The translations under genes and the position numbers were made by a program. A stretch of DNA of 64,000 nucleotides from Candidatus Fermentibacter sp. (GTDB lineage: Bacteria > Fermentibacterota > Fermentibacteria > Fermentibacterales > Fermentibacteraceae), in NCBI GenBank assembly GCA_030373045.1, contig JAUCPW010000018.1:17078-81077 (forward strand), read 5' to 3'. Shown here piece by piece: positions 3,853-54,856 of the stretch. The notes beneath the pieces were generated by a model that was given only the letters and a program-made list of their open reading frames with translations, did not search any database and was not told the DNA's origin. Positions within the stretch are counted from its first letter, which is position 1. The number at the start of each line of letters is the position of its first letter.

Positions 3853-4193
3853 TCATCAGGTCTTCTTCCGACGTTAGGCCGCAGCATCTCTCGGACACCG
3901 GCTATTCGAAGGTCGCCAGCAGGCTCCTGGCCGGCACCCGGGACGGCTGCAACAAGATCACGCTCAGGATGCTCACGATCCAGTCCGGCGGGCACATCCC
4001 GAGGGAGGCCGCCAGGGGCGAGAGGGTCATATACGTGCTCTCGGGCGGTGGCGAATACGTCGATGCGGACGGGTTCGCCCACGAGATGAACGCAGGCGAC
4101 ACGGCCGCCGTGCCGGCCTGGGAGGTTTTCCACATGCAGAACAGAAGCGGCGGGGACCTGGTGCTGCTGATCGCTGCGGGGCCGAACCAGTGA
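3849..4193 (+). CDS. cupin-domain protein
   Basis: 114 aa; GERVIYVLSGGGEYVDADGFAHEMNAGDTAAVPAWEVFHMQN beta-sandwich cupin-like pattern; ATGA-coupled to hydE and larB. Confidence 0.45.
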   Translation: MIIRSSSDVRPQHLSDTGYSKVASRLLAGTRDGCNKITLRMLTIQSGGHIPREAARGERVIYVLSGGGEYVDADGFAHEMNAGDTAAVPAWEVFHMQNRSGGDLVLLIAAGPNQ

Positions 4194-41372: not shown

Positions 41373-42598
41373 GCACCGAAGACACCAGCCTCGGCGGACT
41401 GGCCGGCGAAGCCCTCCTGCTGATCGCGAGGAGCGTCAGGAAGCTGGCCGTCTTCTGCTTCACGGTGGCCGTCTGCACCGCCGTCTACACCCTGGTGGTC
41501 AAGCCGAGGTTCGAGGCCACGGCCATCGCCTCCGTCCCCGGAGCCTCCTCCTCGGGCGGGCTGTCCGCCCTGACCGGGCTCATTCCCGGCGCTCTGGGAG
41601 GCTCCCTCGGCGACCTCGCCTCGAGCCTCCCGATGGAGATCGGGACTCCGTCGGGCACGGACATCACGGTTGTCGAGGCGGTCCTCTCCTCCCGCCAGGT
41701 GATGGAACGGATCGTGATAAGTTATGACCTGATGCGGAGATGGCACTGCAGGTCGATGGACGACACGCTGAAGAAGCTCTCGAAGAGAGTCAGCGCGACC
41801 CTCACCACCGACGGGCTCTTCGTGGTGACGGCCTCCGGAGAGACCCGCGAGGAGGCTGCCTCCATGGCCTCGGACATCATCACCTTCGCCGACGAGGAAC
41901 TGGCCGTGATGGTGACGAGCCGCGCCCGCAGGGCCAGGATGGAGGCCGAGCACCTGCTGGCGGCCGCGCGCGATTCTCTCGAAGCAGCCCAGGAGAGGCT
42001 CGAGGCGTTCAGGGCCGCGACCGGCCTGATACTCCCGGAGGAACAGGGCGCCGCAATGGTCCAGGCCCTGGGCCAGGTCGAGGCGGAACTCCTTCTGGCG
42101 AGATCTGAGCTGTCCGGGGCTGCCGCCACCCTGTCGCCGGGGAGCCCGGCGGCCAGGGAGCTCGCCGCGCGCGTCGGCTCCCTCGAGAGCGACCTCGCTC
42201 TCAGGCTGGGGGCGGGCGACAGCCTGAGCGTGTTCCCCGCCATGGACAGCCTCCCGGCCGGGATGCGCCAGTACGGGAACCTCTACCTTGACGTGGAGAT
42301 GAAGACCACTCTGGTGCTGATGCTGACTCAGCAGCTCGAGACCCTGAGGATCGAGGAAGCCCGCGAGAGCCCCACCCTCGAGATCGTGCAGCCGCCGGTG
42401 GCGCCCAAGCAGAGGGTCTTCCCGAAACGCACCCTCATGGTCCTCGAGTTCACGGCCATCGCCTTCATCCTCGGCTGCCTCTGGCTGACGGTCGTGGCAT
42501 ACCTTCGCAGGCTCTCGAGAGACCCTGCCAAGGCCGAGTTCTGGAGGCAGTTCTCCGGGGCGATACTCGAGCAGATCCCCGCCCGCCGGAGCCGCTGA
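41369..42598 (+). CDS. wzz: polysaccharide co-polymerase / chain-length determinant (Wzz/PCP family, no kinase domain)
   Basis: ATGA-coupled; N-terminal TM, long coiled-coil periplasmic region, C-terminal TM (LMVLEFTAIAFILGCLWLTVVAYL). Confidence 0.55.
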   Translation: MSTEDTSLGGLAGEALLLIARSVRKLAVFCFTVAVCTAVYTLVVKPRFEATAIASVPGASSSGGLSALTGLIPGALGGSLGDLASSLPMEIGTPSGTDITVVEAVLSSRQVMERIVISYDLMRRWHCRSMDDTLKKLSKRVSATLTTDGLFVVTASGETREEAASMASDIITFADEELAVMVTSRARRARMEAEHLLAAARDSLEAAQERLEAFRAATGLILPEEQGAAMVQALGQVEAELLLARSELSGAAATLSPGSPAARELAARVGSLESDLALRLGAGDSLSVFPAMDSLPAGMRQYGNLYLDVEMKTTLVLMLTQQLETLRIEEARESPTLEIVQPPVAPKQRVFPKRTLMVLEFTAIAFILGCLWLTVVAYLRRLSRDPAKAEFWRQFSGAILEQIPARRSR

Positions 42599-42606
42599 GA
42601 CCCGAG

Positions 42607-43908
42607 GTGATCCAGGAGATCAGGGCGTCCTGGGGGAGGCTCGTGTCCATCGGCCTCCCGGTCGTGTTGAGCCAGGGGACGAACGCCGTCTGGGGCGTGG
42701 TGACGCTCCTCGTCGCGAGGGTCCTCCCCGAGCCGCAGTATGCCGCGTTCTCCCTGGCCAAGACCGTCGAGATCCTGGCCGTCACGATCGGCGGCGGCTT
42801 CGTCATGCAGGCCCTCCTGAAGTATGCCTCCGAAGGCTCCGGCAGGCGTGCCGAGACCGTGAACTCGGCGGCGGCCCTCGCGCTCGCCCTGACGGTGGCG
42901 GGAGCAGGTCTGCTCCTCGCGTGCGGAGGCCTGATACAGTCCTTCTACAGCGAGATCCCGCTCGCCGGCCTGCCCGTGGTCCTCTCGCTCATGGTCCTCT
43001 CGGAGGGCGTCTGCGCCATCCCCCGGAACAACCTCCTCGCCGTGCAGAAGACCCGGCAGGTGATGTGGGGGGACATCACCGGTTTCGCCGTGAGGATCTC
43101 GATAGTCCTCTTCCTGGCGTTCTCTGGCAGGCTCTCCTCCCCGCATCCCATCTTCCTGGCCCAGACCCTCTCGAATGCGGCATGCCTGCTGGTCCTCGTC
43201 CGGGGCGGGGGCAGGTTCTTCGAGAGGGGAGCCCGGGTCGCGCGGGAGAGCCTGACCAGGGTGTGGAGGTTCTCGGTCTACACCCTGGGGACGTCGCTCG
43301 CCGCCTACATCTACTCCTGGACCGACATACTGATGCTCGGGCGGATGGCTCCCGGTGACGTCGCGACATACGGTGTCGCCCGGAGCCTCACCAGTTTCGT
43401 GGCGAGCCTCAACCAGGCCGCGAACATCGTGCTGCTTCCGCTCGCCTCGAGGATGCACACGACCGGACGGACCCCCGGGGTGGCCGCGAGGACCTGGCAG
43501 GGGATCATCCTGGTGGAGGCCGTCCAGCTCCCCTTCATAGCCATTTTCGCGATCTTCCCGAGGCAGATCCTCGATCTCCTGTTCGAGGGCAGGTACAGCG
43601 AAGGCTGGGCGGTCGTGACGGTGCTCGCCCTGCTGAATCTGGTCAAGCCTGTCGGGAGCCTCTTCTCCTCCACCGCATGCGGGCTGGGCAGGCCGGAGTA
43701 CTCCCTACGCTCGGTGCTGCTCACCGCGCTTCTCAACGTCGGCCTCAACGCGCTGCTGATACCCAGGTTCGGAGGGCTGGGGGCCGCCTATGCGACCGTG
43801 GTCTCGATGCTGGCGGGCGGGCTGGCGATCTACCTCGCGGTCACCTCGTATCTGAAGAGGCACACGGACGGATCCGGAGAGGCTGCGGCGGGTTCCGGCG
43901 CGGACTGA
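42607..43908 (+). CDS. second Wzx/MOP-family polysaccharide flippase-like membrane protein
   Basis: GTG start; 433 aa, ~12 TM. Confidence 0.5.
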   Translation: MIQEIRASWGRLVSIGLPVVLSQGTNAVWGVVTLLVARVLPEPQYAAFSLAKTVEILAVTIGGGFVMQALLKYASEGSGRRAETVNSAAALALALTVAGAGLLLACGGLIQSFYSEIPLAGLPVVLSLMVLSEGVCAIPRNNLLAVQKTRQVMWGDITGFAVRISIVLFLAFSGRLSSPHPIFLAQTLSNAACLLVLVRGGGRFFERGARVARESLTRVWRFSVYTLGTSLAAYIYSWTDILMLGRMAPGDVATYGVARSLTSFVASLNQAANIVLLPLASRMHTTGRTPGVAARTWQGIILVEAVQLPFIAIFAIFPRQILDLLFEGRYSEGWAVVTVLALLNLVKPVGSLFSSTACGLGRPEYSLRSVLLTALLNVGLNALLIPRFGGLGAAYATVVSMLAGGLAIYLAVTSYLKRHTDGSGEAAAGSGAD

Positions 43909-43941: not shown

Positions 43942-44937
43942 TCAGGATCCCGGTTTCTCTCCTGCGGGCGCGGACGGCCGGGTGCAGAACCAGTGCAGGA
44001 AGATCCCGTCGGGTATCCTCCCGGCTGCCCTGACGAGAACCGCGAGCACCGCCCAGGCGAAGACGGTCCTGGCCGCGAAGACCCCCCAGGCGCTTGCCCC
44101 CAGCGAGAGCATCAGCAGGCTGTCCTCCACGAGGCTGTGCGCGAGGCCCATCAGGCACAGCGAGAAGAAGACGTCCCTCGGGGGGATGGAACCCGATCTC
44201 GCCCCGGAGATGATCAGCCCGCCGCCGTAGGAGAGCCCGAGTATCATCCCGAAGATCGTGATGGTGGAAGCTGAGGGGCCTATCCCCATCGATACGAGGA
44301 CGGGGCGCAGACCCCTGTCCAGCAGGTCCGTGAAGCCGGTTCTCCTGAGGATCTTCAGGAGGGCTATGAGCGCAGTGACTATCAGGAAGATCGACAGCAG
44401 GTTCTTCACCTGCCCCAGGGCCCATGCCCCCAGCCCCGCTCCGGCTGCCGCCGCAGGCTGCCAGAGGATCCGCGCCTCTCCGCCGAGCATGCCCAGGGCG
44501 TCGAAGATCGAGGACAGGGCGGCTCCGATGACGATAGCGCCACCCACCCTGAGGGGCAGCATGATCCTCATCCTCGCCCCGGCCTGCCTTGCGACGCCGA
44601 GCTCCACGGGCAGGGAGTGGGCGACCAGCATCATAGTGCAGACCACGGTGACCTGGGCGACCGTCATGTGGAGGGGAGGGGCCACCGACACGAAGGTCAC
44701 TATCCCGCCGTACAGGTTGGTGATCATGGCCGTGGCCCAGACGAGCCCCATGCTGCCGGGAAGGCCCACGACCGCCATCAGGGGCGAGAGCAGCCTTCCC
44801 GCCAGGTCCACGGCGCCGGTTTCCTCGAGGATCTTCACCGCGATCACGACGGGGATCATGATGCGGAAGAGCACCAGGCTGACCGCCAGGGACTCCTTCA
44901 GGAGGGCCAGGATCCGCGACGGGATTCGGCCGGGCAC
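43942..44937 (-). CDS. membrane protein with nucleoside-recognition (Gate) domains (YjiH/SpmA-B-like)
   Basis: GTG start overlapping upstream stop by 1 nt; two Gate-like hydrophobic halves. Confidence 0.45.
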   Translation of the reverse strand: MPGRIPSRILALLKESLAVSLVLFRIMIPVVIAVKILEETGAVDLAGRLLSPLMAVVGLPGSMGLVWATAMITNLYGGIVTFVSVAPPLHMTVAQVTVVCTMMLVAHSLPVELGVARQAGARMRIMLPLRVGGAIVIGAALSSIFDALGMLGGEARILWQPAAAAGAGLGAWALGQVKNLLSIFLIVTALIALLKILRRTGFTDLLDRGLRPVLVSMGIGPSASTITIFGMILGLSYGGGLIISGARSGSIPPRDVFFSLCLMGLAHSLVEDSLLMLSLGASAWGVFAARTVFAWAVLAVLVRAAGRIPDGIFLHWFCTRPSAPAGEKPGS

Positions 44938-45665
44938 TAGAGGAGGAGCCTGAAGCCCAGGACCGCGAAGCTCACCATGGTGAAGTTGCGTGACTGATCG
45001 ACGTCCGCTCCTCCCTCGAGGAACCTCCAGCCCATCGAGAGCCTGGCGTCCCTGTCGAAGGCCCAGCCCAGGCCCGCGAAGACGTCCTCGGCCCTGCCCA
45101 CCGGCCCGGCGAGCGCGTCACCGTCGAGCAGCACGTGGAGTGGACCGGAGGCCCTCCAGTCGAGGCCGAAGCTCACCAGGGGGACGAAGCCGGTGTTCTC
45201 GGTGGAAGCCGAGAGGCCGCCTCCCTCGAGGCTTATCGAGGCGTCCCTGATCTTGGCCGATGCGCCGAGGCTGATGCGCATGCCATCCCTGTCGACCACC
45301 GCGTATCTGTAGGTGAGCCTGTAGGAGTCGAACCTGTAGTCGGCCGTGATTTCGGTACCCTCCGGGAACGTGGTGTCGTCGAACAGGATGTCCTCTTCGA
45401 CGACGCCGTTCGATTCGATGCGGAGGGGGGCCGCGAAGAGGCTGATCTCGCTGCGCCCGGACGAAATTCCGCACCTCAGCCTGAAGAAGAGGGCGGGATC
45501 GGCATCCAGGTCGTCGGTGAGGGAGATGTCGTCACCGGTCTCCCCGGGGACCCTCACATCGTTGTAGACCGACCAGCCCATGCCGGTCTCGGAGTCCACG
45601 AACCATCCCGCGAAAGCCGCCGGCGCCGGCAGGAACGCGATCATCACGACGGGGGGCAGTTTCAT
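44937..45665 (-). CDS. small secreted / outer-membrane beta-barrel protein
   Basis: ATG 45665 (MKLPPVVMIAFLPAPAAFAGW… signal peptide); 242 aa; only the 3' 243 codons of the artefactual 1027-aa track ORF 44937..48020 look protein-like. Confidence 0.45.
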   Translation of the reverse strand: MKLPPVVMIAFLPAPAAFAGWFVDSETGMGWSVYNDVRVPGETGDDISLTDDLDADPALFFRLRCGISSGRSEISLFAAPLRIESNGVVEEDILFDDTTFPEGTEITADYRFDSYRLTYRYAVVDRDGMRISLGASAKIRDASISLEGGGLSASTENTGFVPLVSFGLDWRASGPLHVLLDGDALAGPVGRAEDVFAGLGWAFDRDARLSMGWRFLEGGADVDQSRNFTMVSFAVLGFRLLL

Positions 45666-45749: not shown

Positions 45750-47180
45750 ATGGATCTGACCGAAATGCTCTTCGAGACGTTCCGGGAATCCGGCAGGCAG
45801 CTCTTCCTCGTCGGAGGAACGGTGCGCGACAGATTGCTGGGACTTCCGCCCGGCGACCTGGATTTCGCCACCGATGCCTCCCCTGACGAAACTTCCCGCA
45901 TCCTGCAGGGTGCCGGGATCAGGACCCTCGATGTCGGCAGGCGGTTCGGCACGATCACCGCGATGGTCGACGGCCCGGACGGCGTGAGCAGGGCGGAGAT
46001 CACAACCTACAGGTCGGAGAGGTACGAGAAGGGCTCCCGCAAGCCCGGAGTGCGCTTCGGATGCTCCCTGGAGGCCGACCTCCTCCGCAGGGACTTCACT
46101 GTCAACGCAATCGCGATGGGCCCCGACGGCTCGCTGGTGGATCCCTCCGGCGGCGTGGCGGACCTCTCGGCGGGGGTACTCCGGACTCCCGGCGACCCCT
46201 TCGTGACGATCGCCGAGGATCCTCTCAGGAGCCTCAGGGCGGCAAGGTTCTCGGGACGTTTCGGTTTCTCGGTGCAGGCCGACCTGGCCGGGGCTGTCCG
46301 GCGGGAGGCCGGGGCCCTCCGCGACGTTTCCGTCGAGAGATGGCTGAGAGAGCTCGACTCCATGCTCGAGACCCCCGACGGCGAGGGAGCCGCGGCCTGC
46401 ATGAGGTGCCTCGTGGACCTCGGCCTGCTCCCCGTCGTCCTCCCCGAGATCGCTCCCCTCGCGTGCAGCGACGGCGAGGATCCGGGCGAGCACCATGTCC
46501 AGGGCGTGTGGAGCCATACCCTGTGCGTCCTGGCGAAGACCCCGCCCAGGCTCGTTCCGAGATGGGCCGCCCTCTTCCACGACTCGGGCAAGCCCTTCCG
46601 CCGCACGGTCGACGCCGGCGGATCCGTGCACTTCCACGGGCACCCGGAGATCGGGGCCGAACTGGCCATGCTCGCCGGCGGCAGGCTGAGATTCCCCAAG
46701 GCCAGGAGGATGGACGTCGCCGGCCTCGTACGGCTGCACCAGAGGCCTGCGGAATACTCTCCGGGCTGGGGCGACGGTGCGGTCAGGAGGCTTGCCAGGG
46801 ATGCGGGAGACCTGCTGGAGGACCTCCTCGTGCTCTCCGAGGCCGATTCCTCGTGCCGGGCTCCGGATTCGGCCGGAGACAGGGCCGTGAGGCTCGCCGA
46901 ACTCCGGAGAAGGCTCAGGATGGACCCCGTCGCCTCCTCCGGAAGACTCGTCCCCGGCGAGGTCGGCGAGTTCCTGGCGAGGGAGCTCGGGCCGGGAGGG
47001 GGCCGCGAGACCGGAGCGCTGCTCGCCGTCCTGGAGGAGATGGTTCTGTCCGGTTCGATCCCTCCCGATGCCGGACCGGAAGTCTTCCTGGAGGCTCTCG
47101 GGCGCTACCGGGGACGGTCGTCCGGGAGCCCCCCGGAGAAGAGCGACGAAGGCTCGATCACGACCGACGGGGAGCCGTAG
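45750..47180 (+). CDS. cca: CCA-adding tRNA nucleotidyltransferase / poly(A) polymerase family with HD domain
   Basis: …LFLVGGTVRDRLLGLPPGDLDFATDA…RRDFTVNAIA… and HD region …HHVQGVWSHTL…LFHDSGKP…. Confidence 0.75.
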   Translation: MDLTEMLFETFRESGRQLFLVGGTVRDRLLGLPPGDLDFATDASPDETSRILQGAGIRTLDVGRRFGTITAMVDGPDGVSRAEITTYRSERYEKGSRKPGVRFGCSLEADLLRRDFTVNAIAMGPDGSLVDPSGGVADLSAGVLRTPGDPFVTIAEDPLRSLRAARFSGRFGFSVQADLAGAVRREAGALRDVSVERWLRELDSMLETPDGEGAAACMRCLVDLGLLPVVLPEIAPLACSDGEDPGEHHVQGVWSHTLCVLAKTPPRLVPRWAALFHDSGKPFRRTVDAGGSVHFHGHPEIGAELAMLAGGRLRFPKARRMDVAGLVRLHQRPAEYSPGWGDGAVRRLARDAGDLLEDLLVLSEADSSCRAPDSAGDRAVRLAELRRRLRMDPVASSGRLVPGEVGEFLARELGPGGGRETGALLAVLEEMVLSGSIPPDAGPEVFLEALGRYRGRSSGSPPEKSDEGSITTDGEP

Positions 47181-48682
47181 TCGAGGCTGACGACGAACCT
47201 CGCCAGTATGCCGGTGCCGATGACCCCGTCGCAGCTCGAGACCACGGGCATGTCGCCGAGGCTCCCGCACTGCCCGGCCGGGACAGTGAAGCTCCCCAGC
47301 GTGATGCCCTCCACCCCGAACAGCACCGAAGTCCTCGTGCCGCCGACACCCTCCACGGCGACCTCCGAAGTCTCCCTCCCCTCGAGGAACGAAGGGTGCG
47401 ACTCGAGGAAGGCGTCGGAGAAGTGGAGCGCGCCTCCGGCCCCCGTGTCGAGCACGAGCCTGACCGGTACCGAGTCCTCGAGGACGGCCTCGATCACGAG
47501 GAGGTTCATCACCTTCACGGCCGGCAGCACGCTCGAACCGGGTGGCGGTGACCAGCCGGCCCGTTCGTGCAGCGTGACCGTACCGGAGCCGTAGTCGATG
47601 CAGGTGACGAAGCGGCCGAGGAAGTCGTAGCCCAGGATCATCCCGATGTGCCGACCCGTGGACGGGAAGAAGGCCTCGTCCAGATCCATCAGGGGAAGGG
47701 TCTGACCGGTGACCGTCGCGCCCAGGGCCGTGTACTCCGGCACCTCCGCGAAGCCGAAGGTTTCGGTCCCGCCCACTCCGACCGCGCTGAATTCGCCCGT
47801 GGGCGAGAGGCCGATGCCGGCCGCGGCGCGTACGTCGAGGACCGTGGCCCCGGCTCCCGAATCGAGCAGTATGTCCACATCCCTCCCGCACACCGAACCG
47901 CGGAGGAAGATGTGCTGCCCTTCGAGCTCGAATCCGTACGGGGTCCCCGGCTGCCGGAGGACGGCGTCCCCCGGGCGGGATGCCACCATGAAGACGCTGT
48001 CGGGGATGGGGATGTCGCACTCGACCAGGACGCTCGTCGAGCTCGTCACCTGTCCCAGGGCCGGTATGCTGTCGCGCGTCGAGGAGGGGAAGAGGAGCCC
48101 TCCCGATTCGCGGAACCCCACCGGCATCGAGAACATCGCGAGCCCCATGGCCTCGGTGCGCATGAGCAGGGGCAGCCCGGAGCCTCGGGATACGTAGTAG
48201 GTGACGGGCACGCCGCCCGCCTCGAACGCCAGGGGGATTGCGCTCTCCCCGGCTATCACGGTGTCGGGGCCTGCGGTCAGCCCGGACCCGCCGGGATCGA
48301 GGAATGCGTCCTGGAAGACCGTCATCCTCGCGAGCGCCGCCTGCGATCCCGAGACCTCGTCGCCGGCAGTCAGGGCTCCGTTCCTGTCGACCGACCAGAC
48401 GCTGTCACCCGAGATCAGCAGATCCTGCGACACGGGGCCCACACGCATCGATATCCTGCCGGCGAAGGGCTCCCTGACCCACCAGGACTCGCTCGTCCCC
48501 GAGAGGCCCGCCATGTGGACGCTGTCGATCGTGTGGAGGGTGGAGAGCGCCTCGAGCGCCTCCCGGCCGCCCAGGGCCCTCAGGTAGGCCTCGGCCGCCT
48601 CGTCGACCCCGCCGTCCGGAACGGGTCGCGAACAGCCCGCCGCCATCAGCAGGGCGGCCCCTGCAGCGAGATGCATCCTCAA
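47105..48682 (-). CDS. lipoprotein with two retropepsin-like aspartyl protease domains
   Basis: signal peptide + lipobox AAGCS; two clan-AA active-site motifs ILLDSGAGATVL and LVLDTGAGGALHF. Confidence 0.55.
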   Translation of the reverse strand: MRMHLAAGAALLMAAGCSRPVPDGGVDEAAEAYLRALGGREALEALSTLHTIDSVHMAGLSGTSESWWVREPFAGRISMRVGPVSQDLLISGDSVWSVDRNGALTAGDEVSGSQAALARMTVFQDAFLDPGGSGLTAGPDTVIAGESAIPLAFEAGGVPVTYYVSRGSGLPLLMRTEAMGLAMFSMPVGFRESGGLLFPSSTRDSIPALGQVTSSTSVLVECDIPIPDSVFMVASRPGDAVLRQPGTPYGFELEGQHIFLRGSVCGRDVDILLDSGAGATVLDVRAAAGIGLSPTGEFSAVGVGGTETFGFAEVPEYTALGATVTGQTLPLMDLDEAFFPSTGRHIGMILGYDFLGRFVTCIDYGSGTVTLHERAGWSPPPGSSVLPAVKVMNLLVIEAVLEDSVPVRLVLDTGAGGALHFSDAFLESHPSFLEGRETSEVAVEGVGGTRTSVLFGVEGITLGSFTVPAGQCGSLGDMPVVSSCDGVIGTGILARFVVSLDYGSPSVVIEPSSLFSGGLPDDRPR

Positions 48683-48706
48683 GTCTCTCTCCAGTCCGCC
48701 GGCAGG

Positions 48707-49726
48707 TCACCGGCCTCCGGGGATGAACGGCAGCCTGCCCGCCCCCGCGGATTCGAGGAGCGCGAACAGGATGCCGCTCCTGTCGGCGCCGGCGAACGAG
48801 GCCGACAGGGCTATGCCGATGTCGGCCTCCCGGCCGGCGTGGTAGACGCTGAGCTCGTGCCCGCAGGCGGCGCCGAGGTCCCAGAGAGGGATGACGTCGC
48901 ACGGGCAGTGTCCGATGGCGCGCAGGCTGTCGGTTCTGAACAGCAGGGGGTCGACCGGCAGGCCGGGGATGCCGTCGAGCAGCACGTTCCATGCGTGGAA
49001 GACCAGGCTGTCTCCCCTGCGGACCAGCCCGCCCTCCACCCCGGCGCGTATCCCCTCCTTCCGGGCCTCCTCCATGAACTCGACGGCCATGTCCAGGCAC
49101 GGCCCCGTGCCGGTGAAGGAGTCGGGCATCCCGACGCCCGCGGCGATGGCGAGGATATCGTCGAACCTCTCCCTGCCCAGGCTTCCCGGAAGGGGTCTGA
49201 AGGTGTGGGGGGACTGGACGATGTGGAGCATCACGGGCAGCTCGACCGTCTCGCCGGGTGCCAGCACGGGTATGTGCGCGAGGAGACTGCCGCCGTCCCG
49301 GCGGAAGGGGCCGTAGAGCATCGTGAGGGACTGGCAGGGGGGATGGGGCCTGGGCAGCGGCATCACGACGGTGAGATCCCGGGCGTCCGAGGAGCCCAGG
49401 TTGGTGATCCCTGCCGTGAGCACGAGCAGAGTGTCGAAGGGGACCGAGCCAGCCATCCTGTCGGAGAGCCAGGACCTCGTGGCCGGATCCTCCGCTCCCC
49501 CGAGGGCTATCCCGTAGGCGGACGCCGCCTCCTCGAACCTCCCCGCCGCCTCCAGCAGGCTGGCGAAGAGGATGGGCCCGTCCCCGCCCTGCCTCGCCGC
49601 GAGCTCGGCGAACAGGATCGCCTCCTCCGGGATCTCCGCGATGCCCGCGAGCTTCCTGCACGAGTCGGCGGGCGAGACGGAGAAGGAGGCGAGCAGCAGG
49701 GCGCCGAGGGATGCGGCCGGGATCAT
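48707..49726 (-). CDS. transglutaminase-like cysteine-protease superfamily protein
   Basis: signal peptide; …GTGPCLDMAVEFMEEARKEGIRAG… (Cys), …VFHAWNVLLDG… (His) suggest TGase-core Cys-His-Asp. Confidence 0.4.
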   Translation of the reverse strand: MIPAASLGALLLASFSVSPADSCRKLAGIAEIPEEAILFAELAARQGGDGPILFASLLEAAGRFEEAASAYGIALGGAEDPATRSWLSDRMAGSVPFDTLLVLTAGITNLGSSDARDLTVVMPLPRPHPPCQSLTMLYGPFRRDGGSLLAHIPVLAPGETVELPVMLHIVQSPHTFRPLPGSLGRERFDDILAIAAGVGMPDSFTGTGPCLDMAVEFMEEARKEGIRAGVEGGLVRRGDSLVFHAWNVLLDGIPGLPVDPLLFRTDSLRAIGHCPCDVIPLWDLGAACGHELSVYHAGREADIGIALSASFAGADRSGILFALLESAGAGRLPFIPGGR

Positions 49727-50961
49727 CCCCGGAGGCCCCTCAGGGGGTCGAGCGACGCCGCCCTGAAGGCCGGGACGGCCGCGGACGCCAGGCTGAGGAG
49801 GAGGGAGGCCGCGCAGGTCGCCGCCACGCTGGCGGGCACGACGGATACGGGTATGTGCTCATGGAAGGAATAGACGTCCGGCAGCGTCAGGATCCCGGCG
49901 CCCCCGACCAGCCAGCACCCCGTGAGGCCCAGGGCCAGCCCGGCCGAGACCCCGATCAGGCCGACCAGGGCACCCTCCCAGATGAAGACCGAGAGGATCA
50001 GCCGGCTGGATGCGCCCATCGCCTTGAGTATTGATATGTCGCGGCGCCGTTCGACGACCGAGCGCGCGATGGTCCCGGTGATGTTGAAGGTCGCGACGAG
50101 CGTGATGAGGAGTATCGCCGCGAAGGAGCCCATCTTCTCGAGCTGCATGGATGCGGCCAGGGAGGGGTTCTTCTCCTTCCACGTACGCAGCCTGACGCTG
50201 TCGGGCACGACCGGCCCGAGCAGCTCCGCCGCCTCCTCGGGGGAGACGCCGTCCTCGAGTCCCACCGCGATCCCGGAGCAGCCCCCCCGCGGGAGGAACA
50301 TCCTGGCGGCCAGCTCCATCGGGACATAGGCCAGGGCCCTGTCGTTGACGGGCAGGCCGGTCTCCACCGCGCCCGCGAGCACCGCCCTGCCTATCGCGAA
50401 TCCCCGCGAAGTGAAGAACGACTCCGGTGGGAAGAAGATGAGGGTGTCGCCGAGGGGATGATAGAGGTCCTCGGCGAGATAGAGACCCGTGACCGTGCAG
50501 GGGAACCCGTCCGCCGCGAGCAGCCTGGGCTCTCCGTAGACCAGGTTGCTGTCGAGCCCGGACGAGGAGATGCCCGTGACCGGGTCGATCCCCCTGATCC
50601 TGCAGCCCGTCTCGAGGTCCCTCGAGGGGAGCCTGACGATGGCCTCGCCCTCGATGTACGGTGAAACCGAGGCTATCCCCGGGACTTCGCCGATTACGGC
50701 CAGGACCGAATCCGGGATGAAGAGCGCGCCGCCCGAACCGGGCACTATCTCCAGCGGGGCCTCGGCCGTGGTCACCGATCCCGAGATGAAGCCCTCGAGG
50801 CCCTCCATCACGCCCATGACTATGATGAGGGCCGCCACCCCGAGCGCGACTCCGGAGATGCTGACCACCGAGGCCAGCGCCACCGTGCGCCTCTCGGGGT
50901 GCCGCCTCATGTATCTCCAGGCGAGATGCCACGAAAGGGAACCCATAACGCCTCCAGGCAT
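49723..50961 (-). CDS. FtsX-family ABC transporter permease (LolC/E / MacB-like)
   Basis: 412 aa; N-terminal TM, large periplasmic domain, C-terminal 3-TM FtsX bundle (…ILKAMGASSRLILSVFIWEGALVGLIG…). Confidence 0.65.
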   Translation of the reverse strand: MPGGVMGSLSWHLAWRYMRRHPERRTVALASVVSISGVALGVAALIIVMGVMEGLEGFISGSVTTAEAPLEIVPGSGGALFIPDSVLAVIGEVPGIASVSPYIEGEAIVRLPSRDLETGCRIRGIDPVTGISSSGLDSNLVYGEPRLLAADGFPCTVTGLYLAEDLYHPLGDTLIFFPPESFFTSRGFAIGRAVLAGAVETGLPVNDRALAYVPMELAARMFLPRGGCSGIAVGLEDGVSPEEAAELLGPVVPDSVRLRTWKEKNPSLAASMQLEKMGSFAAILLITLVATFNITGTIARSVVERRRDISILKAMGASSRLILSVFIWEGALVGLIGVSAGLALGLTGCWLVGGAGILTLPDVYSFHEHIPVSVVPASVAATCAASLLLSLASAAVPAFRAASLDPLRGLRG

Positions 50962-51027
50962 ATCATGTAATATGCGGAGCCCCGGGCGCGCGGGGCTTGC
51001 CCCGCCGGAGGCGGGTGCGATAGTATC

Positions 51028-54000
51028 GTGTTTTCGGGGGGAGAATCCTTGATCCTTCTGCTTCTGGCGACAGCCCTGGCCCTGCCTGAGGGGCAGGCAG
51101 GCGTGCTCTCCGACGTCCGGTCGGGGTCCGCGGGCTTCTCGGCCACTGTGGAGGTCCCCGGGCCGTCATTCCGGTCCGACGGGGACGTCTACTACCCCGT
51201 GATCCCCGGCTTCTCCTCCTGGGCGGTCGAAGGCGGCCTGGTCAGGCCATGCATCGTCTTCTACGTGCCGCTACCCCCTGGCGCGTCGCCCGAGCTCGCC
51301 TTCACGGTCGAGGACAGGAGGGAGGCGCCCCCCGCCCCGCGGGGAAGGCCGGCGGTCTCTCCGCACCTCGAAGGCACGGGCCTGTCCACCGTCACGGTCT
51401 ACGATGACCGGGCATCGGCACCCCCTCCCGCCGTGGTCGAGATGTCGGTCGTGAGGGCAATGGGTGTCGATCTGGCCCAGGTCAGGATCAGCCCGTTCGA
51501 CGGGGAGGGATACGGCGACTATGCCGGATCGGTCGGCATCTCCCTGGAATGGGGGGGAGCGCCCGGCTCGGAGCCCCTCTCCGACGGCCCACTTTCGCTG
51601 ATATGCCCCGGGGGCGTGGTATGGTGGCCCCACAGGGCGCAGAGAACGGCCGCCAGCCCCTTCTGGGGGATGCCCTGGGCGCGGATCGAGACCTCGGTCG
51701 GCGGCTGCCACGTGCTCACCGGCGCGATGCTCGACTCCGCCGGAGTAGACATCCTCGGAGCCGACTCCCAGACCCTGCGGATGCTGACCGGCCCCGGTCT
51801 CATGTTCGACCTGGAATGGCGCGACGAGACGCATGCCGCATCCGAGACCTCGATACTCGTCCTCGACGGCGGCGACGGCTCCTTCGACGCCGCGGACAGC
51901 ATCCTGTTCGTGGGCAGGGCCCTGTGGCGCTTCGAGCCTTCGCCGGAATCGACGCCTCCGCTCGGGCGCCTCTCGCACAGGTACGACACGCGGAACGTCT
52001 ACTGGCTGACCTGGGGCGGCGAGCCCGGCCGGATGATGGAGAGCGTACCGTCCTCCCCGGACGGCTCCCCGGCATGGCCGGGCGACCTCCTCGCCCCCCT
52101 CTTCGTCGAACAGGAGGCCTTCTGGCTGCCGGGCCACGAAATCGAGACCGGATGGGTATGGACCGAGCTCTCCACGAGCTACGACTCCTACTTCCCGTTC
52201 ATGGCCGAGAGGGTCGGGGAGCCGGCCGACATCCTCCTGTCGTTCGTCCCGGACGAGAATGTGACGGGACAGCTGAGGATCACCCTCAACGGCGACTCGG
52301 TGGGCGGCTGCTCGTTCTCGGGCTACCCTCCCCCCTTCACCGTGCTCCTCGAGGACGTCGGGATCGCCGAAGGATCCAACACCATCATCACGCACCTGAC
52401 CCTTACGGGCGGCAGCGGGAGCATCTACTTCGACAACATGACCGTCTCGTACCCCAGGCTTCCCGCGGATGCCGGCGGGGCCGACCTCCTGCCTTCGGGC
52501 GCCCCCGACGGGAGGTACACGCTCTCGCTCGGCCTGGAAGGCGACGGACCTGCCAGGGTTTTCGACTGCTCCAGGCACTATGCGGTCGACCTGCTCGACG
52601 GCGCCTCCGATCAGGGCGGCACGGTAAGCCTCTCCCTCGACATCGGGCAGGAATCGCGCCTGCTGGCAGTCCGCCCCGGCGACCTCAGGACGCCCAGTTC
52701 CATCTCCCCCGCCGAACCGGGCAGGATAGTCGGCACCCTCGACGGCGCCGACGCGGTGATCATCGCGGCGGACATCCTCGCCGAAGCCTCGGCCCCTCTC
52801 GAGGCGCTCATGGAGGCGGGGGGGCTCCAGGCGGAACTCGTCACCCTGGGCGAGGTCTACGACGAATTCGGCCAGGGCGTGGCCGATCCCGGAGCAGTGA
52901 GGTCGTTCATATCATGGGCCCTGGACACGTGGGACCCCGCGCCATCCGACTTCATCTTCGTTGGCGACGGGCACTACGACGTGCTGAACCGCAACTCCCC
53001 CGAGCCGTGCCTCTTCCCGCCGTGGCTGAAGCTCGGCAACTCGGACCAGCTCTTCGACGACTTCTACGTCATGACGACCCCCGGCCAGTTCCTGCCGGAG
53101 GCCTCCCTCTCGCGCATCCCCGCCGACTCCCCTCAGGACGTGTCCGTCTTCGTCGCCAAGGCCGCGGCCTACCGCTCGGGAGATGCCGCGGGGGCCTGGA
53201 GCGACAGGATACTCCTCACTGCGGACGACGAGTGGGGAAACGGTACCCCGAGCGAGACGTGGCACACGTACACATGCGAACTGCTGGCGGACAGCTGCAT
53301 CTCTCCGATGTACGACAGGGGCAAGTTCTACCTCATCGAGTACCCCTGGCCCGAGAGCGGCACGCATCCCTTCAAGCCCGAGGCCCAGGAGGACTACGTC
53401 GAAGCCCTTTCCGAAGGCTGGCTCGCCGTCCTGTTCTTCGGGCACGGCTCGCACGACCAGATCTGCCACGAGAAGCTACTGGTCAACAGCGACATAGCCC
53501 GGATCGACAACGGCCCCAGACAGCCCGTGATGGTCTTCGCGAGCTGCGACGTGGGGAGCTTCGAGCTCGTCTCCGCCGACTGCATGTCGGAGGAGTTCGT
53601 CCTGAACCCCGGCGCCGGGGCCATAGCGACCATCGGGGCCACCCGGGGAACGAACGCCAACGAACCGCTCTTCGAGGACTTCTGCTCGATGCTCTTCGAC
53701 GGGACGTCGGCCACCGGCACCGGGCAGGCCCTCTGGGCGTCGAAGCTGCTGAACCCGTTCCAGAACTCCTACTACTACGTGCTCTTCGGAGACGGGACGA
53801 TGAGGCCGATGCGGCCGGCATCCGGAACCCAGGTCGCGCTCGGCGGCGACGCCATTCTCCGCGGCAGGGTGAATCCCCTCGAGGCCTCGTACCCCTCGGA
53901 CTGCCTGGCCAGGGTCCGTGTCACCGAGAGCGCCGCCTGGACGGAGTACACCTGCCTTGGCGGAAACCTGATCGAATACCTGAAGTACGGCTCGACGGCC

Positions 54001-54810
54001 TTCTCGGGCTCCTTCCTGACCTCCGGGGGCCTGCTGGACCTCGACTTCTTCATGCCCCTCCAGTCCGACACCGGCGCGTACGGGAGGGCGGCGGCCCTGG
54101 GGATGTCCGATGCGGGCGGCGTCTCCGACTGGCTGGAATGGGTCCCGGTCGCGGACTCCGGCGGCTATGCGGCGGACTCCACGGGGCCTCTGATAGAGCA
54201 GAGCCTCGAAGGCTGCGCGGGCGAGTCCCCGGTCACGGGACCGGACCCCGTGTTCCAGGCTGACCTGTCCGATCCGAGCGGCATATGCACCTTCGGGGGG
54301 GGGGCCGGCAGGTCGATCCTGATCAACCTCGACTCCCAGGCCTTCGATCTGAGCGCCTTCTTCGCCTATGACCAGGGCAGCTCGACGGCCGGGAGCCTCG
54401 AGTACCAGCTCCCGCACCTGCTCGAAGGGCCCCATAGGATCATCATGGCCGCCTGGGACGGCATGGGCAACTTCTCCCGCGACACCCTCGACTTCCAGGT
54501 CGTCGAGGATACCGGCGTCTCGCTCGACGAGTTCCTGGTGTACCCCAACCCCTCCGCGGGCCCTGTCTGCTTCAGCTTCAGGGCCTCCACGGACGGCTCC
54601 GCGAAGGTATCCATCTACACGATCGCGGGCAGGCGCATCAGGGAGATCTCGAGCGACCTCTCCGCGGGCTACTGCCAGGTCCTGTGGGACGGGCTCGACG
54701 CCGACGGCGACGAACCGGCCAGCGGAGCCTACCTGTTCGTGCTGGGATTCGAGGGAGACGGCGGCTCCGTGACGGAACGCGGGGTCATCGCCCTTGCAAG
54801 GGACGGGTGA
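51028..54810 (+). CDS. giant peptidase C25 (gingipain-like) with FlgD-Ig / T9SS-type CTD
   Basis: GTG start, signal peptide; …ILLTADDEWGNG…VLFFGHGSHDQICHE (His)…VFASCDVGSFE (Cys); C-terminal LVYPNPSAGPVCFSFRAS…VSIYTIAGRRIREIS…VLWDGLDADGDEPASGAYLFVL… CTD. Confidence 0.7.
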   Translation: MFSGGESLILLLLATALALPEGQAGVLSDVRSGSAGFSATVEVPGPSFRSDGDVYYPVIPGFSSWAVEGGLVRPCIVFYVPLPPGASPELAFTVEDRREAPPAPRGRPAVSPHLEGTGLSTVTVYDDRASAPPPAVVEMSVVRAMGVDLAQVRISPFDGEGYGDYAGSVGISLEWGGAPGSEPLSDGPLSLICPGGVVWWPHRAQRTAASPFWGMPWARIETSVGGCHVLTGAMLDSAGVDILGADSQTLRMLTGPGLMFDLEWRDETHAASETSILVLDGGDGSFDAADSILFVGRALWRFEPSPESTPPLGRLSHRYDTRNVYWLTWGGEPGRMMESVPSSPDGSPAWPGDLLAPLFVEQEAFWLPGHEIETGWVWTELSTSYDSYFPFMAERVGEPADILLSFVPDENVTGQLRITLNGDSVGGCSFSGYPPPFTVLLEDVGIAEGSNTIITHLTLTGGSGSIYFDNMTVSYPRLPADAGGADLLPSGAPDGRYTLSLGLEGDGPARVFDCSRHYAVDLLDGASDQGGTVSLSLDIGQESRLLAVRPGDLRTPSSISPAEPGRIVGTLDGADAVIIAADILAEASAPLEALMEAGGLQAELVTLGEVYDEFGQGVADPGAVRSFISWALDTWDPAPSDFIFVGDGHYDVLNRNSPEPCLFPPWLKLGNSDQLFDDFYVMTTPGQFLPEASLSRIPADSPQDVSVFVAKAAAYRSGDAAGAWSDRILLTADDEWGNGTPSETWHTYTCELLADSCISPMYDRGKFYLIEYPWPESGTHPFKPEAQEDYVEALSEGWLAVLFFGHGSHDQICHEKLLVNSDIARIDNGPRQPVMVFASCDVGSFELVSADCMSEEFVLNPGAGAIATIGATRGTNANEPLFEDFCSMLFDGTSATGTGQALWASKLLNPFQNSYYYVLFGDGTMRPMRPASGTQVALGGDAILRGRVNPLEASYPSDCLARVRVTESAAWTEYTCLGGNLIEYLKYGSTAFSGSFLTSGGLLDLDFFMPLQSDTGAYGRAAALGMSDAGGVSDWLEWVPVADSGGYAADSTGPLIEQSLEGCAGESPVTGPDPVFQADLSDPSGICTFGGGAGRSILINLDSQAFDLSAFFAYDQGSSTAGSLEYQLPHLLEGPHRIIMAAWDGMGNFSRDTLDFQVVEDTGVSLDEFLVYPNPSAGPVCFSFRASTDGSAKVSIYTIAGRRIREISSDLSAGYCQVLWDGLDADGDEPASGAYLFVLGFEGDGGSVTERGVIALARDG

Positions 54811-54856
54811 CGGTCCGGGGGCGCGCGCCCCGGACAGGCCGTCCGGAGTTGGACAA

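What the first reader, a model, noticed from the sequence alone, without database searches (positions are those of the whole stretch)
47105..50961. FtsX permease – transglutaminase-like protein – dual retropepsin-like lipoprotein operon
Three minus-strand genes are tightly linked: ATGA-type overlap at 49723-49726 and a 24-nt gap at 48683-48706. An FtsX/LolCE-type permease has no adjacent ATPase. A secreted transglutaminase-core protein has a Cys…His…Asp arrangement. A lipoprotein carries two clan-AA aspartyl-protease motifs (DSGAG and DTGAG), which would form a single-chain pseudo-dimer like pepsin but built from retropepsin-like halves. FtsX-family permeases are known to regulate periplasmic hydrolases (FtsEX with EnvC/PcsB); this could be an analogous envelope-remodelling or protein-processing module.
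Basis: partly seen in the sequence, partly recalled or inferred. Interest (0 to 1): 0.5.

Follow-up and report, generated by a model that had tools for sequence, protein, structure and literature searches.

The report
LolF permease–transglutaminase-like–aspartic protease cluster
A lipoprotein-export permease gene in an uncultured Fermentibacter overlaps by four bases a phylum-specific transglutaminase-like enzyme gene and is followed by an aspartic-protease lipoprotein gene, an arrangement kept across the whole phylum that hints at an undescribed helper of outer-membrane lipoprotein handling.

Summary
The three minus-strand genes are real, tightly packed, and have no internal terminator motif. 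The window comes from Candidatus Fermentibacter (phylum Fermentibacterota).

- **Gene 1** is a LolF/LolC/LolE-type lipoprotein-release permease, not FtsX proper. No ABC ATPase gene lies in the 64 kb window or in 51 fetched loci.
- **Gene 2** has no Pfam hit above threshold. Its model is a TPR-like domain, a DUF11-like beta-sandwich and a transglutaminase-like core. Cys210 and His244 are invariant and Asp259 nearly so. The full-length family was found only in Fermentibacterota.
- **Gene 3** is a lipoprotein. It has a LolA/LolB-fold domain followed by a single-chain, pepsin-like aspartic protease made of two retropepsin-like lobes, with Asp274 and Asp412 invariant. A homologous Bacteroides fragilis structure (9IY9) already exists. 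The usual C-terminal PDZ domain is missing here.

Across species genomes of the phylum, the permease stop overlaps the gene 2 start by 4 nt in 36 of 38 loci. PorU sortase genes lie divergently upstream. The protease follows in about 31 of 41 loci.

Most likely this is a LolDF-type lipoprotein extractor, with its ATPase encoded elsewhere, plus co-expressed accessory envelope hydrolases. The parts are known kinds. The conserved coupling is apparently undescribed, and its function is inferred. Interest is moderate.

The parts
49723..50961 (-). LolF/LolC/LolE-type permease (type VII ABC / MacB superfamily). Four predicted TM segments with a large periplasmic domain (about residues 53-280) between TM1 and TM2. 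Probable true start is ATG 50946 (407 aa).
   Evidence: Pfam FtsX 1.1e-17 and MacB_PCD 8.5e-13. TIGR02212 lolCE E 4.9e-56 full length, but 190 bits against a cutoff of 362. PDB LolF 6e-31, LolE 1.7e-28, LolC 1.2e-25. Hydropathy. GGAGG before the second ATG. NCBI homolog is 407 aa.
49723..49726 (-). ATGA stop/start overlap between the permease and the transglutaminase-like gene (translational coupling).
   Evidence: Sequence. A 4-nt overlap (ATGA/GTGA/TTGA) is kept in 36 of 38 Fermentibacterota loci.
48707..49726 (-). Phylum-specific 339-aa protein. Layout: short N-terminal hydrophobic segment, TPR-like helices (residues about 19-93; 49448-49672), DUF11-like beta-sandwich (97-171; 49214-49438), transglutaminase-like core (185-311; 48794-49174).
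49097..49099 (-). Cys210 codon, putative catalytic nucleophile (GPC motif).
   Evidence: Invariant in 30 sequences. Codon checked.
48995..48997 (-). His244 codon (FHAW motif), putative catalytic His.
   Evidence: Invariant. Codon checked.
48950..48952 (-). Asp259 codon, putative third triad residue, 15 residues after His244.
   Evidence: Conserved in at least 90% of sequences. Codon checked.
47105..48682 (-). Lipoprotein with a signal peptide plus lipobox (Cys17, 48632-48634), a LolA/LolB-fold domain (about residues 24-235; 47978-48613) and two retropepsin-like lobes (about 240-372, 47567-47965; about 384-511, 47150-47533) that form a pepsin-like single chain. Probable start is ATG 48676. The C-terminal PDZ domain of most orthologs is absent.
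47861..47863 (-). Asp274 codon (DSGAG), catalytic Asp of lobe 1.
   Evidence: Invariant in 34 sequences. Codon checked.
47447..47449 (-). Asp412 codon (DTGAG), catalytic Asp of lobe 2.
   Evidence: Invariant in 34 sequences. Codon checked.
50962..51027 (.). Short divergent intergenic region between the permease gene and porU. It holds a CATATTA element and a GCAAGCCC element conserved upstream of the permease gene in other genomes, and a 20-nt palindrome at 50978-50997.
   Evidence: Sequence. Palindrome. Comparison of nine orthologous intergenic regions.
51028..54810 (+). PorU-like type IX secretion sortase (Peptidase_C25), divergently transcribed. A conserved neighbour of the cluster.
   Evidence: Pfam C25 2.5e-57. 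NF033707 T9SS_sortase E 9e-107, 358 bits against a cutoff of 420. Present upstream in nearly all loci.
54794..58603 (+). Second PorU-like C25 paralog in tandem.
   Evidence: Pfam C25 1.4e-61 and FlgD_ig. Paralog pair conserved.

Best explanation
This is a phylum-wide conserved envelope gene cluster of Fermentibacterota built around the lipoprotein-release permease.

**Shown**
- Gene 1 encodes a LolF/LolCE-type permease.
- Its stop codon overlaps the start of a phylum-restricted protein made of a TPR-like domain, a beta-sandwich and a transglutaminase-like core with a conserved Cys-His-Asp triad.
- A lipoprotein gene usually follows. That protein has a LolA/LolB-fold domain fused to a single-chain, two-lobed retropepsin-type aspartic protease. 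It normally carries a PDZ domain, which is lost in this species.
- Two PorU-type T9SS sortase genes lie divergently upstream.

**Inferred**
- The permease works as a LolF homodimer with a LolD-type ATPase encoded elsewhere, and extracts mature lipoproteins from the inner membrane.
- The transglutaminase-like enzyme is made in a fixed ratio with LolF through translational coupling. It acts at or near the permease as an accessory hydrolase or transamidase on lipoproteins or other envelope proteins.
- The protease lipoprotein is itself a Lol substrate. It serves as an envelope processing or quality-control protease, using its LolA-like pocket to bind acyl chains and, in most species, its PDZ domain to bind C-termini.
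For: **Identity of the parts**
- Permease.
- Transglutaminase-like protein.
- Protease.

**Linkage**
- No internal terminator motif.
- The 4-nt stop/start overlap is kept in 36 of 38 genomes even though the start codon varies between ATG, GTG and TTG.
- The protease gene lies -22 to +27 nt after gene 2 in about 20 genomes, and is downstream on the same strand in about 31 of 41.
- Genes beyond the cluster differ between lineages. The adjacency is therefore selected rather than inherited block synteny.

**Unlinked ATPase is plausible**
- No ABC ATPase lies in the window or in 573 kb of fetched loci.
- In H. pylori, lolF also has no identified adjacent lolD (PMC7240156).
- The conserved cytoplasmic motif ERRRDISILKAMGA between TM2 and TM3 aligns with Acinetobacter LolF DKKSDIAILRTLGA. 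That this segment contacts the ATPase is my own knowledge of the family, not tested here.
- JGI names orthologs 'lipoprotein-releasing system permease protein'.
Against: - No LolD, LolA or second LolCE paralog could be looked for genome-wide, so a housekeeping role for this permease is not proven.
- TIGR02212 scores below its curated cutoff.
- The transglutaminase-like protein has an atypical N-terminus: 10-14 hydrophobic residues, with K/R before them in only 3% of family members against 91% in the protease family. Export to the periplasm is therefore uncertain.
- The protease gene is absent within 6 kb in 7 genomes and is separated by an inserted gene in about 10.
- Homologs of the protease in other phyla stand alone, so its tie to LolF is looser than that of gene 2.
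- There is no expression, interaction or activity data.
Confidence: 0.5

Rival explanations
1. FtsEX-like mechanotransmission module. The permease, with some ATPase, does not transport lipoproteins. Instead it uses ATP-driven movements of its periplasmic domain to switch on the transglutaminase-like enzyme, the aspartic protease or both, as FtsEX does with EnvC or PcsB.
For: - The permease belongs to the same MacB/FtsX superfamily.
- A strict 4-nt coupling with a hydrolase-like protein that carries a protein-binding TPR domain fits a stoichiometric partner.
Against: - Full-length similarity is to LolF/LolE/LolC. FtsX models match only the C-terminal TM region, at 44 bits against a cutoff of 225.
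- There is no adjacent FtsE-like ATPase.
- No coiled-coil EnvC/PcsB-type adaptor is present.
- Export of the partner is unproven.
Confidence: 0.15
2. Type IX secretion accessory module. The cluster works with the divergently transcribed PorU sortases. For example, LolF could deliver T9SS lipoprotein components, or the two hydrolases could process T9SS cargo or the cell-surface anchor.
For: - PorU-like genes lie divergently upstream in nearly every locus with enough sequence, sharing a short intergenic region.
- Lol components are needed for T9SS and gliding in Bacteroidota (PMC11885536).
Against: - Neither hydrolase has a T9SS C-terminal sorting domain.
- Divergent adjacency does not show co-regulation.
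- No literature ties Fermentibacteria to T9SS.
Confidence: 0.15
3. Functionally unrelated neighbours. A housekeeping lolF, a stand-alone cysteine hydrolase and a stand-alone envelope protease merely share a transcript or a conserved syntenic block.
For: - The protease family occurs alone in other phyla and has moved or been lost from the cluster in several lineages.
- Unrelated genes (a metallophosphoesterase and others) are inserted in about 10 genomes.
Against: - The 4-nt overlap between permease and gene 2 is kept in 36 of 38 genomes at only 38-63% protein identity, while outer flanks are reshuffled.
- Gene 2 was found only in this position: all 41 genome loci encoding it are Fermentibacterota, and every one with enough upstream sequence has the permease gene directly before it.
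Confidence: 0.12
4. The transglutaminase-like protein is a lipoprotein-modifying acyl- or amidotransferase. It would use its Cys-His-Asp triad through an acyl-enzyme thioester, as arylamine N-acetyltransferases do, to prepare substrates for LolF. That would make it a functional stand-in for Lnt or Lnb.
For: - The catalytic triad is conserved.
- Coupling to the gene for the permease that, in E. coli, needs fully acylated substrates is obligatory (the E. coli requirement is my own knowledge).
- The N-terminal hydrophobic segment could hold the protein at the membrane.
Against: - There is no direct evidence.
- The protein has no membrane domain of the kind seen in Lnt.
- Presence or absence of Lnt or Lnb in these genomes could not be checked.
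- The closest structure is annotated only as a putative cysteine protease.
Confidence: 0.06

Closest known systems
LolDF / LolCDE lipoprotein extractor (LolF of Acinetobacter and Helicobacter pylori; LolC and LolE of E. coli)
   Same: - Full-length alignment of 400 residues: LolF E 6e-31, LolE 1.7e-28, LolC 1.2e-25.
- Same Pfam pair MacB_PCD plus FtsX and a four-TM layout.
- As in H. pylori, no lolD lies next to lolF.
   Different: - It scores below the TIGR02212 equivalog cutoff.
- It is never next to an ATPase in this phylum.
- It is translationally coupled to a transglutaminase-like gene, which I did not find described for any Lol system.
FtsEX with EnvC, PcsB, RipC or CwlO (hydrolase-activating type VII ABC systems)
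   Same: - Same permease superfamily.
- A hydrolase-like partner is encoded alongside.
   Different: - Only the C-terminal TM region matches FtsX models.
- There is no FtsE.
- The partner has a transglutaminase-like and TPR architecture, not a coiled-coil plus LytM or CHAP domain.
3ISR, putative cysteine protease (transglutaminase-like enzyme) of Cytophaga hutchinsonii; Pfam Transglut_core proteins preceded by a DUF11-like domain
   Same: - Cys-His-Asp arrangement.
- The family profile retrieves Transglut_core proteins, three of which also show a weak, sub-threshold DUF11 match before the core.
   Different: - Only 12-14% identity.
- An extra N-terminal TPR-like domain.
- Pfam models are not reached.
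- Restricted to Fermentibacterota and always placed after lolF.
- The function of 3ISR is itself unknown.
LapG-type bacterial transglutaminase-like cysteine proteinases (periplasmic proteases that release an adhesin from its ABC-based secretion system)
   Same: An analogy from my own knowledge: a periplasmic Cys-His-Asp transglutaminase-fold protease working next to an ABC-type envelope machine on a surface protein.
   Different: - No Pfam match to the LapG family at E up to 10.
- No LapD-like regulator or giant adhesin lies nearby.
- Not tested further.
9IY9, 'exported protein / putative endopeptidase' of Bacteroides fragilis; Pfam Asp_protease_2 (clan AA, retropepsin-like)
   Same: - Single chain with two retropepsin-like lobes.
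- The profile aligns both lobes, E 8.8e-9, with DTGAG in lobe 1 and DTG in lobe 2.
- The next-best sequence matches are DDI1, SASPase and HIV proteases.
   Different: - The Fermentibacter protein is a lipoprotein with a roughly 210-residue LolA/LolB-fold N-terminal domain.
- Most of its orthologs add a C-terminal PDZ domain.
- No publication on 9IY9 was found.
LolA3 of Porphyromonas gingivalis and 'outer membrane lipoprotein-sorting protein' structures (3BK5, 3BUU; Pfam PF17131 TP_0789-like)
   Same: - Distant homologs carry a weak PF17131 hit.
   Different: - Here the fold is fused to a protease rather than being a free chaperone.
- No Pfam hit in the window protein itself.
- The function of LolA3 is itself unknown, and it does not pair with LolB (PMC13103446).
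RseB/MucB with DegS (envelope-stress proteolysis)
   Different: - There the parts are separate proteins and the protease is a serine protease.
- Here they are one polypeptide with an aspartic protease.
- No anti-sigma factor is evident nearby.

Membership tests
LolC/LolE/LolF lipoprotein-release permease | MacB-type topology: four TM helices with a large periplasmic domain between TM1 and TM2 (Pfam MacB_PCD plus FtsX). | tested here: met
   Both Pfam domains are above their cutoffs. Hydropathy segments fall at about 25-60, 274-300, 320-360 and 370-399.
LolC/LolE/LolF lipoprotein-release permease | Score at or above the curated equivalog cutoff of TIGR02212 (lolCE). | tested here: not met
   190.4 bits against a cutoff of 362.45, although E is 4.9e-56 and coverage is full length. 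This is expected for a distant phylum, but it means strict equivalog status is not shown.
LolC/LolE/LolF lipoprotein-release permease | Closest experimentally characterised relatives are Lol permeases, matched over the full length. | tested here: met
   The top PDB sequence hits are LolF, LolE and LolC (E 6e-31 to 1e-25, residues 9-411). The next hits, YtrF and others, have E above 7e-6 and cover only the C-terminal part.
LolC/LolE/LolF lipoprotein-release permease | Partner ATPase LolD. | tested here: inconclusive
   No ABC ATPase lies in the 64 kb window or in 51 loci totalling 573 kb. The rest of the genome could not be searched. H. pylori is a precedent for an unlinked lolD.
LolC/LolE/LolF lipoprotein-release permease | LolA-binding Hook and Pad in the periplasmic domain, and lipoprotein extraction activity. 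| not tested
   The Hook region aligns with a 2-residue gap against Acinetobacter LolF, but residue-level criteria were not evaluated. Activity cannot be tested with these tools.
FtsX (cell-division permease) | Match to FtsX family models at their cutoff, and an adjacent FtsE. | tested here: not met
   NCBIfam FtsX models score 32-44 bits against cutoffs of 225-255, and only over residues about 265-396. There is no adjacent ATPase.
Transglutaminase-like superfamily (Pfam Transglut_core / Transglut_core3) | Pfam gathering score. | tested here: not met
   Transglut_core3 scores 14.7 bits (cutoff 26, E 0.029). Transglut_core scores 13.3 bits (cutoff 23, E 0.1). Both fall at the expected place, residues 204-251. 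Two orthologs carry a precomputed PF13471 hit.
Transglutaminase-like superfamily (Pfam Transglut_core / Transglut_core3) | Papain-like transglutaminase core fold. | tested here: met
   [not shown]
Transglutaminase-like superfamily (Pfam Transglut_core / Transglut_core3) | Conserved Cys-His-Asp triad in the canonical order and spacing. | tested here: met
   C210 (GPC) and H244 (FHAW) are invariant. D259 is conserved in at least 90% of 30 sequences. The geometry in the model was not inspected.
Transglutaminase-like superfamily (Pfam Transglut_core / Transglut_core3) | Profile-level sequence link to bona fide family members. | tested here: met
   The family profile retrieves small proteins (E 1.6e-6 to 9.5e-4) over positions about 185-260. 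Their own Pfam hits are Transglut_core at E down to 2e-21.
Clan AA retropepsin-like aspartic protease (Pfam Asp_protease_2) | Pfam gathering score for each lobe. | tested here: inconclusive
   Lobe 1 scores 46.7 bits against a cutoff of 24.3 (met). Lobe 2 scanned alone scores 20.3 bits, E 9.5e-4 (just below).
Clan AA retropepsin-like aspartic protease (Pfam Asp_protease_2) | D-T/S-G-A catalytic motif, one per lobe, conserved. | tested here: met
   DSGAG (D274) and DTGAG (D412) are present. Both Asp are invariant in 34 homologs down to 25% identity.
Clan AA retropepsin-like aspartic protease (Pfam Asp_protease_2) | Two lobes packed as a pepsin-like pseudo-dimer in one chain. | tested here: met
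   [not shown]
LolA/LolB superfamily (N-terminal domain of the protease) | Open beta-barrel with helical plug fold. | tested here: met
   [not shown]
LolA/LolB superfamily (N-terminal domain of the protease) | Sequence-family membership, and the signature residues of LolA (Arg) or LolB (exposed Leu). | tested here: not met
   There is no Pfam hit for residues 1-239 even at E 10. Only distant homologs have a weak PF17131 hit. Signature residues were not examined. This supports the fold only, not a LolA or LolB function.
Bacterial lipoprotein | Signal peptide ending in a lipobox with an invariant Cys. | tested here: met
   The N-terminus reads MRMHLAAGAALLMAAG-C17. A lipobox Cys is present in nearly all Fermentibacterota orthologs, while homologs in other phyla have plain signal peptides.
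Type IX secretion cargo | C-terminal sorting domain (Por_Secre_tail or similar). | tested here: not met
   Neither hydrolase has such a Pfam hit. The domain is detected in another protein of the window (8126-10333).

The most novel reading that the evidence does not exclude
The transglutaminase-like protein is an obligatory, previously unknown accessory enzyme of a LolF-based lipoprotein trafficking machine. It would be a Cys-His-Asp hydrolase or acyl/amidotransferase that modifies or trims lipoproteins or T9SS-linked surface proteins as they are extracted. The LolA-fold aspartic protease lipoprotein would act as the downstream quality-control arm. That would be a new layer of the Lol pathway in an FCB-superphylum lineage.
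Probability: 0.12. Interest if true: 0.75.

Novelty: new variant of a known kind. Interest (0 to 1): 0.4.

Why it matters
Lipoprotein trafficking outside Proteobacteria is being actively re-examined. Recent examples are LolF homodimers and the newly found LolA and LolB homologs in Bacteroidota.

A lolF gene that overlaps a catalytically intact transglutaminase-like gene in nearly every sampled genome of a phylum points to a candidate accessory factor that no model organism has. The cluster also sits next to T9SS sortases and a LolA-fold protease. If the link is functional, it would connect lipoprotein extraction to covalent or proteolytic processing of envelope proteins.

The practical limit is that Fermentibacterota are uncultured, so tests would have to be heterologous or computational. 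If the link is not functional, the finding reduces to correct annotation of three envelope genes.

Tried and rejected
- **Pfam and NCBIfam on the middle protein.** Direct scans gave nothing at E 0.01 and only sub-threshold hits at E 10. The profile against PDB sequences found only designed TPR proteins.
- **PDB sequence search with the whole protease.** phmmer found nothing. The full-length profile was swamped by PDZ hits. A protease-only profile was needed to reach 9IY9.
- **AlphaFold-database fold search.** The library was unavailable.
- **Walking beyond the window to look for lolD.** Two look-ups failed because my ORF starts do not match the recorded gene calls, and I abandoned the attempt.
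- **The third homology search, on the permease.** It returned only orthologs at 51% identity or more, so it said nothing about paralogs.
- **Literature.** There were no papers joining Fermentibacteria with type IX secretion, retropepsin-like with PDZ and lipoprotein, or mentioning 9IY9. A search joining transglutaminase-like with LolC/LolE listed nothing relevant among the ten best hits. A review that holds both terms does not contain the phrase in the held part of its text.
- **Signals in the region.** There were no Rfam families and no sigma-70 promoter or intrinsic terminator motifs.
- **Rejected readings.** It is not FtsX proper, not T9SS cargo (no sorting domain), and not a gene-calling artefact of a high-GC genome (third-position GC 0.89-0.92, orthologs in 41 genomes).

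Full report
**Observation**

The three minus-strand ORFs exist as described: 49723-50961 (412 aa), 48707-49726 (339 aa) and 47105-48682 (525 aa). Their third-position GC is 0.89-0.92, as for the other real genes of this 68% GC window.

The permease stop TGA (49723-49725) and the next ATG (49724-49726) form an ATGA overlap. The gap before the third gene is 24 nt from the TTG start.

- Permease: ATG at 50946, preceded by GGAGG. The identical NCBI protein is 407 aa.
- Protease: ATG at 48676. Its 96% identical ortholog is 523 aa.

No intrinsic-terminator-like or sigma-70-like motif lies in 46800-51300, and there is no Rfam match. The operon ends at the third gene, whose 3' end overlaps a convergent CCA-adding enzyme gene (45750-47180) by 76 nt.

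**Source organism**

The middle protein is 100% identical to a hypothetical protein of a Candidatus Fermentibacter MAG. All relatives of it come from Fermentibacterota: Fermentibacter, Aegiribacteria and Sabulitectum.

**Gene 1, the permease**

- Pfam finds FtsX (1.1e-17) and MacB_PCD (8.5e-13).
- NCBIfam's lolCE model aligns end to end (E 4.9e-56) but stays under its equivalog cutoff, at 190 against 362 bits. FtsX models match only the C-terminal membrane part at 32-44 bits.
- Among solved structures, the best full-length matches are LolF of Acinetobacter (6e-31), LolE (1.7e-28) and LolC (1.2e-25).
- Hydropathy gives the expected four TM segments around a large periplasmic domain.

So it is a LolF/LolCE-type permease rather than FtsX proper.

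No ABC ATPase (Walker A plus LSGGQ) is encoded in a real frame anywhere in the 64 kb, and Pfam scans of the neighbours agree. None occurs in any of the 51 fetched loci, 573 kb in all. An unlinked ATPase has a precedent: in H. pylori no lolD has been identified next to lolF (PMC7240156).

**Gene 2, the transglutaminase-like protein**

No Pfam or NCBIfam family reaches threshold. At E 10, only Transglut_core3 (0.029) and Transglut_core (0.1) appear, at residues 204-251.

An alignment of 30 family members shows invariant Cys210 (GPC) and His244 (FHAW), and Asp259 in at least 90%.

The AlphaFold model (pLDDT 87.3, pTM 0.82) has three parts:
- six helices, residues about 19-93;
- a beta-sandwich, residues 97-171;
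- an alpha/beta core, residues 185-311.

A family profile searched against 1.84 billion representatives gave three kinds of hit:
- about ten full-length representatives only, so this is a small family;
- many giant repeat proteins over the sandwich; the one I scanned is made of DUF11 repeats;
- small proteins over the core, whose own Pfam hits are Transglut_core at E down to 2e-21.

Localisation is less clear. The N-terminus is a hydrophobic run of 10-14 residues followed by an invariant SPxDS. It is as hydrophobic as the lipoprotein signal peptides of the protease family, but K/R precedes it in only 3% of members against 91%, and no TM-length segment is present. Export is likely but not shown.

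**Gene 3, the protease lipoprotein**

- Pfam finds Asp_protease_2 at residues 262-354 (5e-12). The C-terminal third scanned alone gives a second, just sub-threshold hit (9.5e-4).
- Asp274 (DSGAG) and Asp412 (DTGAG) are invariant in 34 homologs down to 25% identity.
- The AlphaFold model has pLDDT 91 and pTM 0.86.
- A protease-only profile aligns both lobes with 9IY9 (E 8.8e-9), followed by DDI1, SASPase and retroviral proteases.

The 'single-chain pseudo-dimer of retropepsin-like halves' is thus right. It is not new, because a homologous structure has been deposited.

The lipobox Cys is conserved in the phylum's orthologs, whereas homologs in other phyla have plain signal peptides. Most orthologs are about 610 aa with a C-terminal PDZ domain. 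The window protein and its close relatives lack it, as do some other 515-529 aa lineages.

**Conservation of the arrangement**

A pattern-plus-tblastn scan of one genome per species returned 41 loci, all Fermentibacterota.

- In every locus with enough sequence, the permease gene immediately precedes gene 2, and a PorU-like gene lies divergently upstream.
- The permease stop and the gene 2 start overlap by 4 nt (ATGA, GTGA or TTGA) in 36 of 38 loci. The two exceptions have a disrupted permease gene.
- The protease gene follows on the same strand in about 31 of 41 loci.
  - In about 20 it is directly adjacent, at -22 to +27 nt.
  - In about 10 it comes after an inserted gene, usually a Tat-signal metallophosphoesterase.
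  - In 7 it is absent within 6 kb.
- Genes further out differ between lineages. In another phylum the protease homolog stands alone.

The conserved core is therefore porU(s) <> lolF-gene 2, with the protease as a frequent third member.

**Interpretation**

Domain identities, conservation and coupling are shown. What follows is inferred.

I think the most likely reading is a LolDF-type lipoprotein extractor whose ATPase is encoded elsewhere. It would be co-expressed with a stoichiometrically coupled transglutaminase-like accessory enzyme and with an envelope protease that is itself a lipoprotein. That protease combines an acyl-chain-binding fold, a protease and usually a PDZ domain. This mix resembles RseB plus DegS-type envelope surveillance, an analogy from my own knowledge.

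The rivals are:
- a T9SS-linked module;
- mere neighbourhood;
- a lipoprotein-modifying transferase.

None can be excluded. The genome-wide Lol inventory, protein-protein interfaces, localisation and transcripts could not be obtained here.

**Novelty and score**

Each protein belongs to a known superfamily, and the double-retropepsin architecture has a solved homolog. The new element is the phylum-wide, translationally coupled pairing of a LolF-type permease with a lineage-specific transglutaminase-like enzyme, beside PorU sortases and a LolA-fold protease. I found no description of it.

I rate it a new variant of a known kind with moderate interest (0.4). The most novel reading is a new enzymatic accessory of the Lol pathway, with a probability of about 0.12.

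Noticed in passing
window 47105-47180: The 3' ends of the protease gene (-) and the CCA tRNA nucleotidyltransferase gene (45750-47180, +) overlap convergently by 76 nt. The overlap coincides with loss of the PDZ domain that most orthologs of the protease carry. Close relatives (L011, L049) show the same arrangement.
   Followed up: partly
window 51028-54810 and 54794-58603: Two tandem PorU-like Peptidase_C25 paralogs of about 1260 aa each, about 40% identical to one another. In other Fermentibacterota a SIR2-family gene sits between them (L001, L003, L005); it is absent here.
   Followed up: partly
window 50962-51027; L011-L018 intergenic regions: Upstream of the permease gene, a CATATTA element about 10-20 nt before the Shine-Dalgarno sequence and a GCAAGCCC element further upstream recur across genomes. 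This is possibly the promoter. The window also has a 20-nt palindrome (50978-50997), shared by L011 but not seen in the more distant genomes compared.
   Followed up: partly
L018 7070-7852; L030 7055-7819; L032, L037, L038, L042, L051: In about seven genomes a 255-288 aa calcineurin-like metallophosphoesterase is inserted between the transglutaminase-like gene and the protease gene. Several copies start with a Tat-type signal (MNRRAFLKTAAA...). In L017 a 592-aa multi-TM protein on the opposite strand sits there instead.
   Followed up: no
window 48707-49726, residues 1-22: The transglutaminase-like family has an unusual N-terminus: a very hydrophobic run of 10-14 residues with almost never a K/R before it, followed by an invariant SPxDS. 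It is unclear whether this is an atypical signal peptide, a membrane tether or part of the fold.
   Followed up: partly
window 44937-45647 (-): A 236-aa ORF with a signal peptide and an alternating, beta-barrel-like sequence has no Pfam hit. It looks like a small outer-membrane protein. It is hidden inside a spurious 1027-aa ORF typical of high-GC DNA, and its stop overlaps the start of the next gene (43942-44937, Gate-domain membrane protein).
   Followed up: no
window 8126-10333: A third Peptidase_C25 protein (735 aa), gingipain-like, with a C25 propeptide, an Ig-like domain and a T9SS C-terminal sorting domain. It is a likely T9SS cargo protease.
   Followed up: no
window 736-5017: LarC-like nickel insertion protein, a radical SAM protein and an AIR-carboxylase-like (LarB-type) protein lie together, suggesting a nickel-pincer cofactor cluster.
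   Followed up: no
window 37500-43908: A polysaccharide synthesis and export block: sugar nucleotidyltransferase, dehydratase, Wza-like Poly_export/SLBB protein, GNVR chain-length protein and a Wzx-type flippase.
   Followed up: no
L048 5043-5998 (Candidatus Sabulitectum silens) and L016: The permease gene appears split by a frameshift in L048 and is truncated or shifted in L016. These are the only two loci without the 4-nt overlap. Assembly error and genuine pseudogenisation were not distinguished.
   Followed up: no
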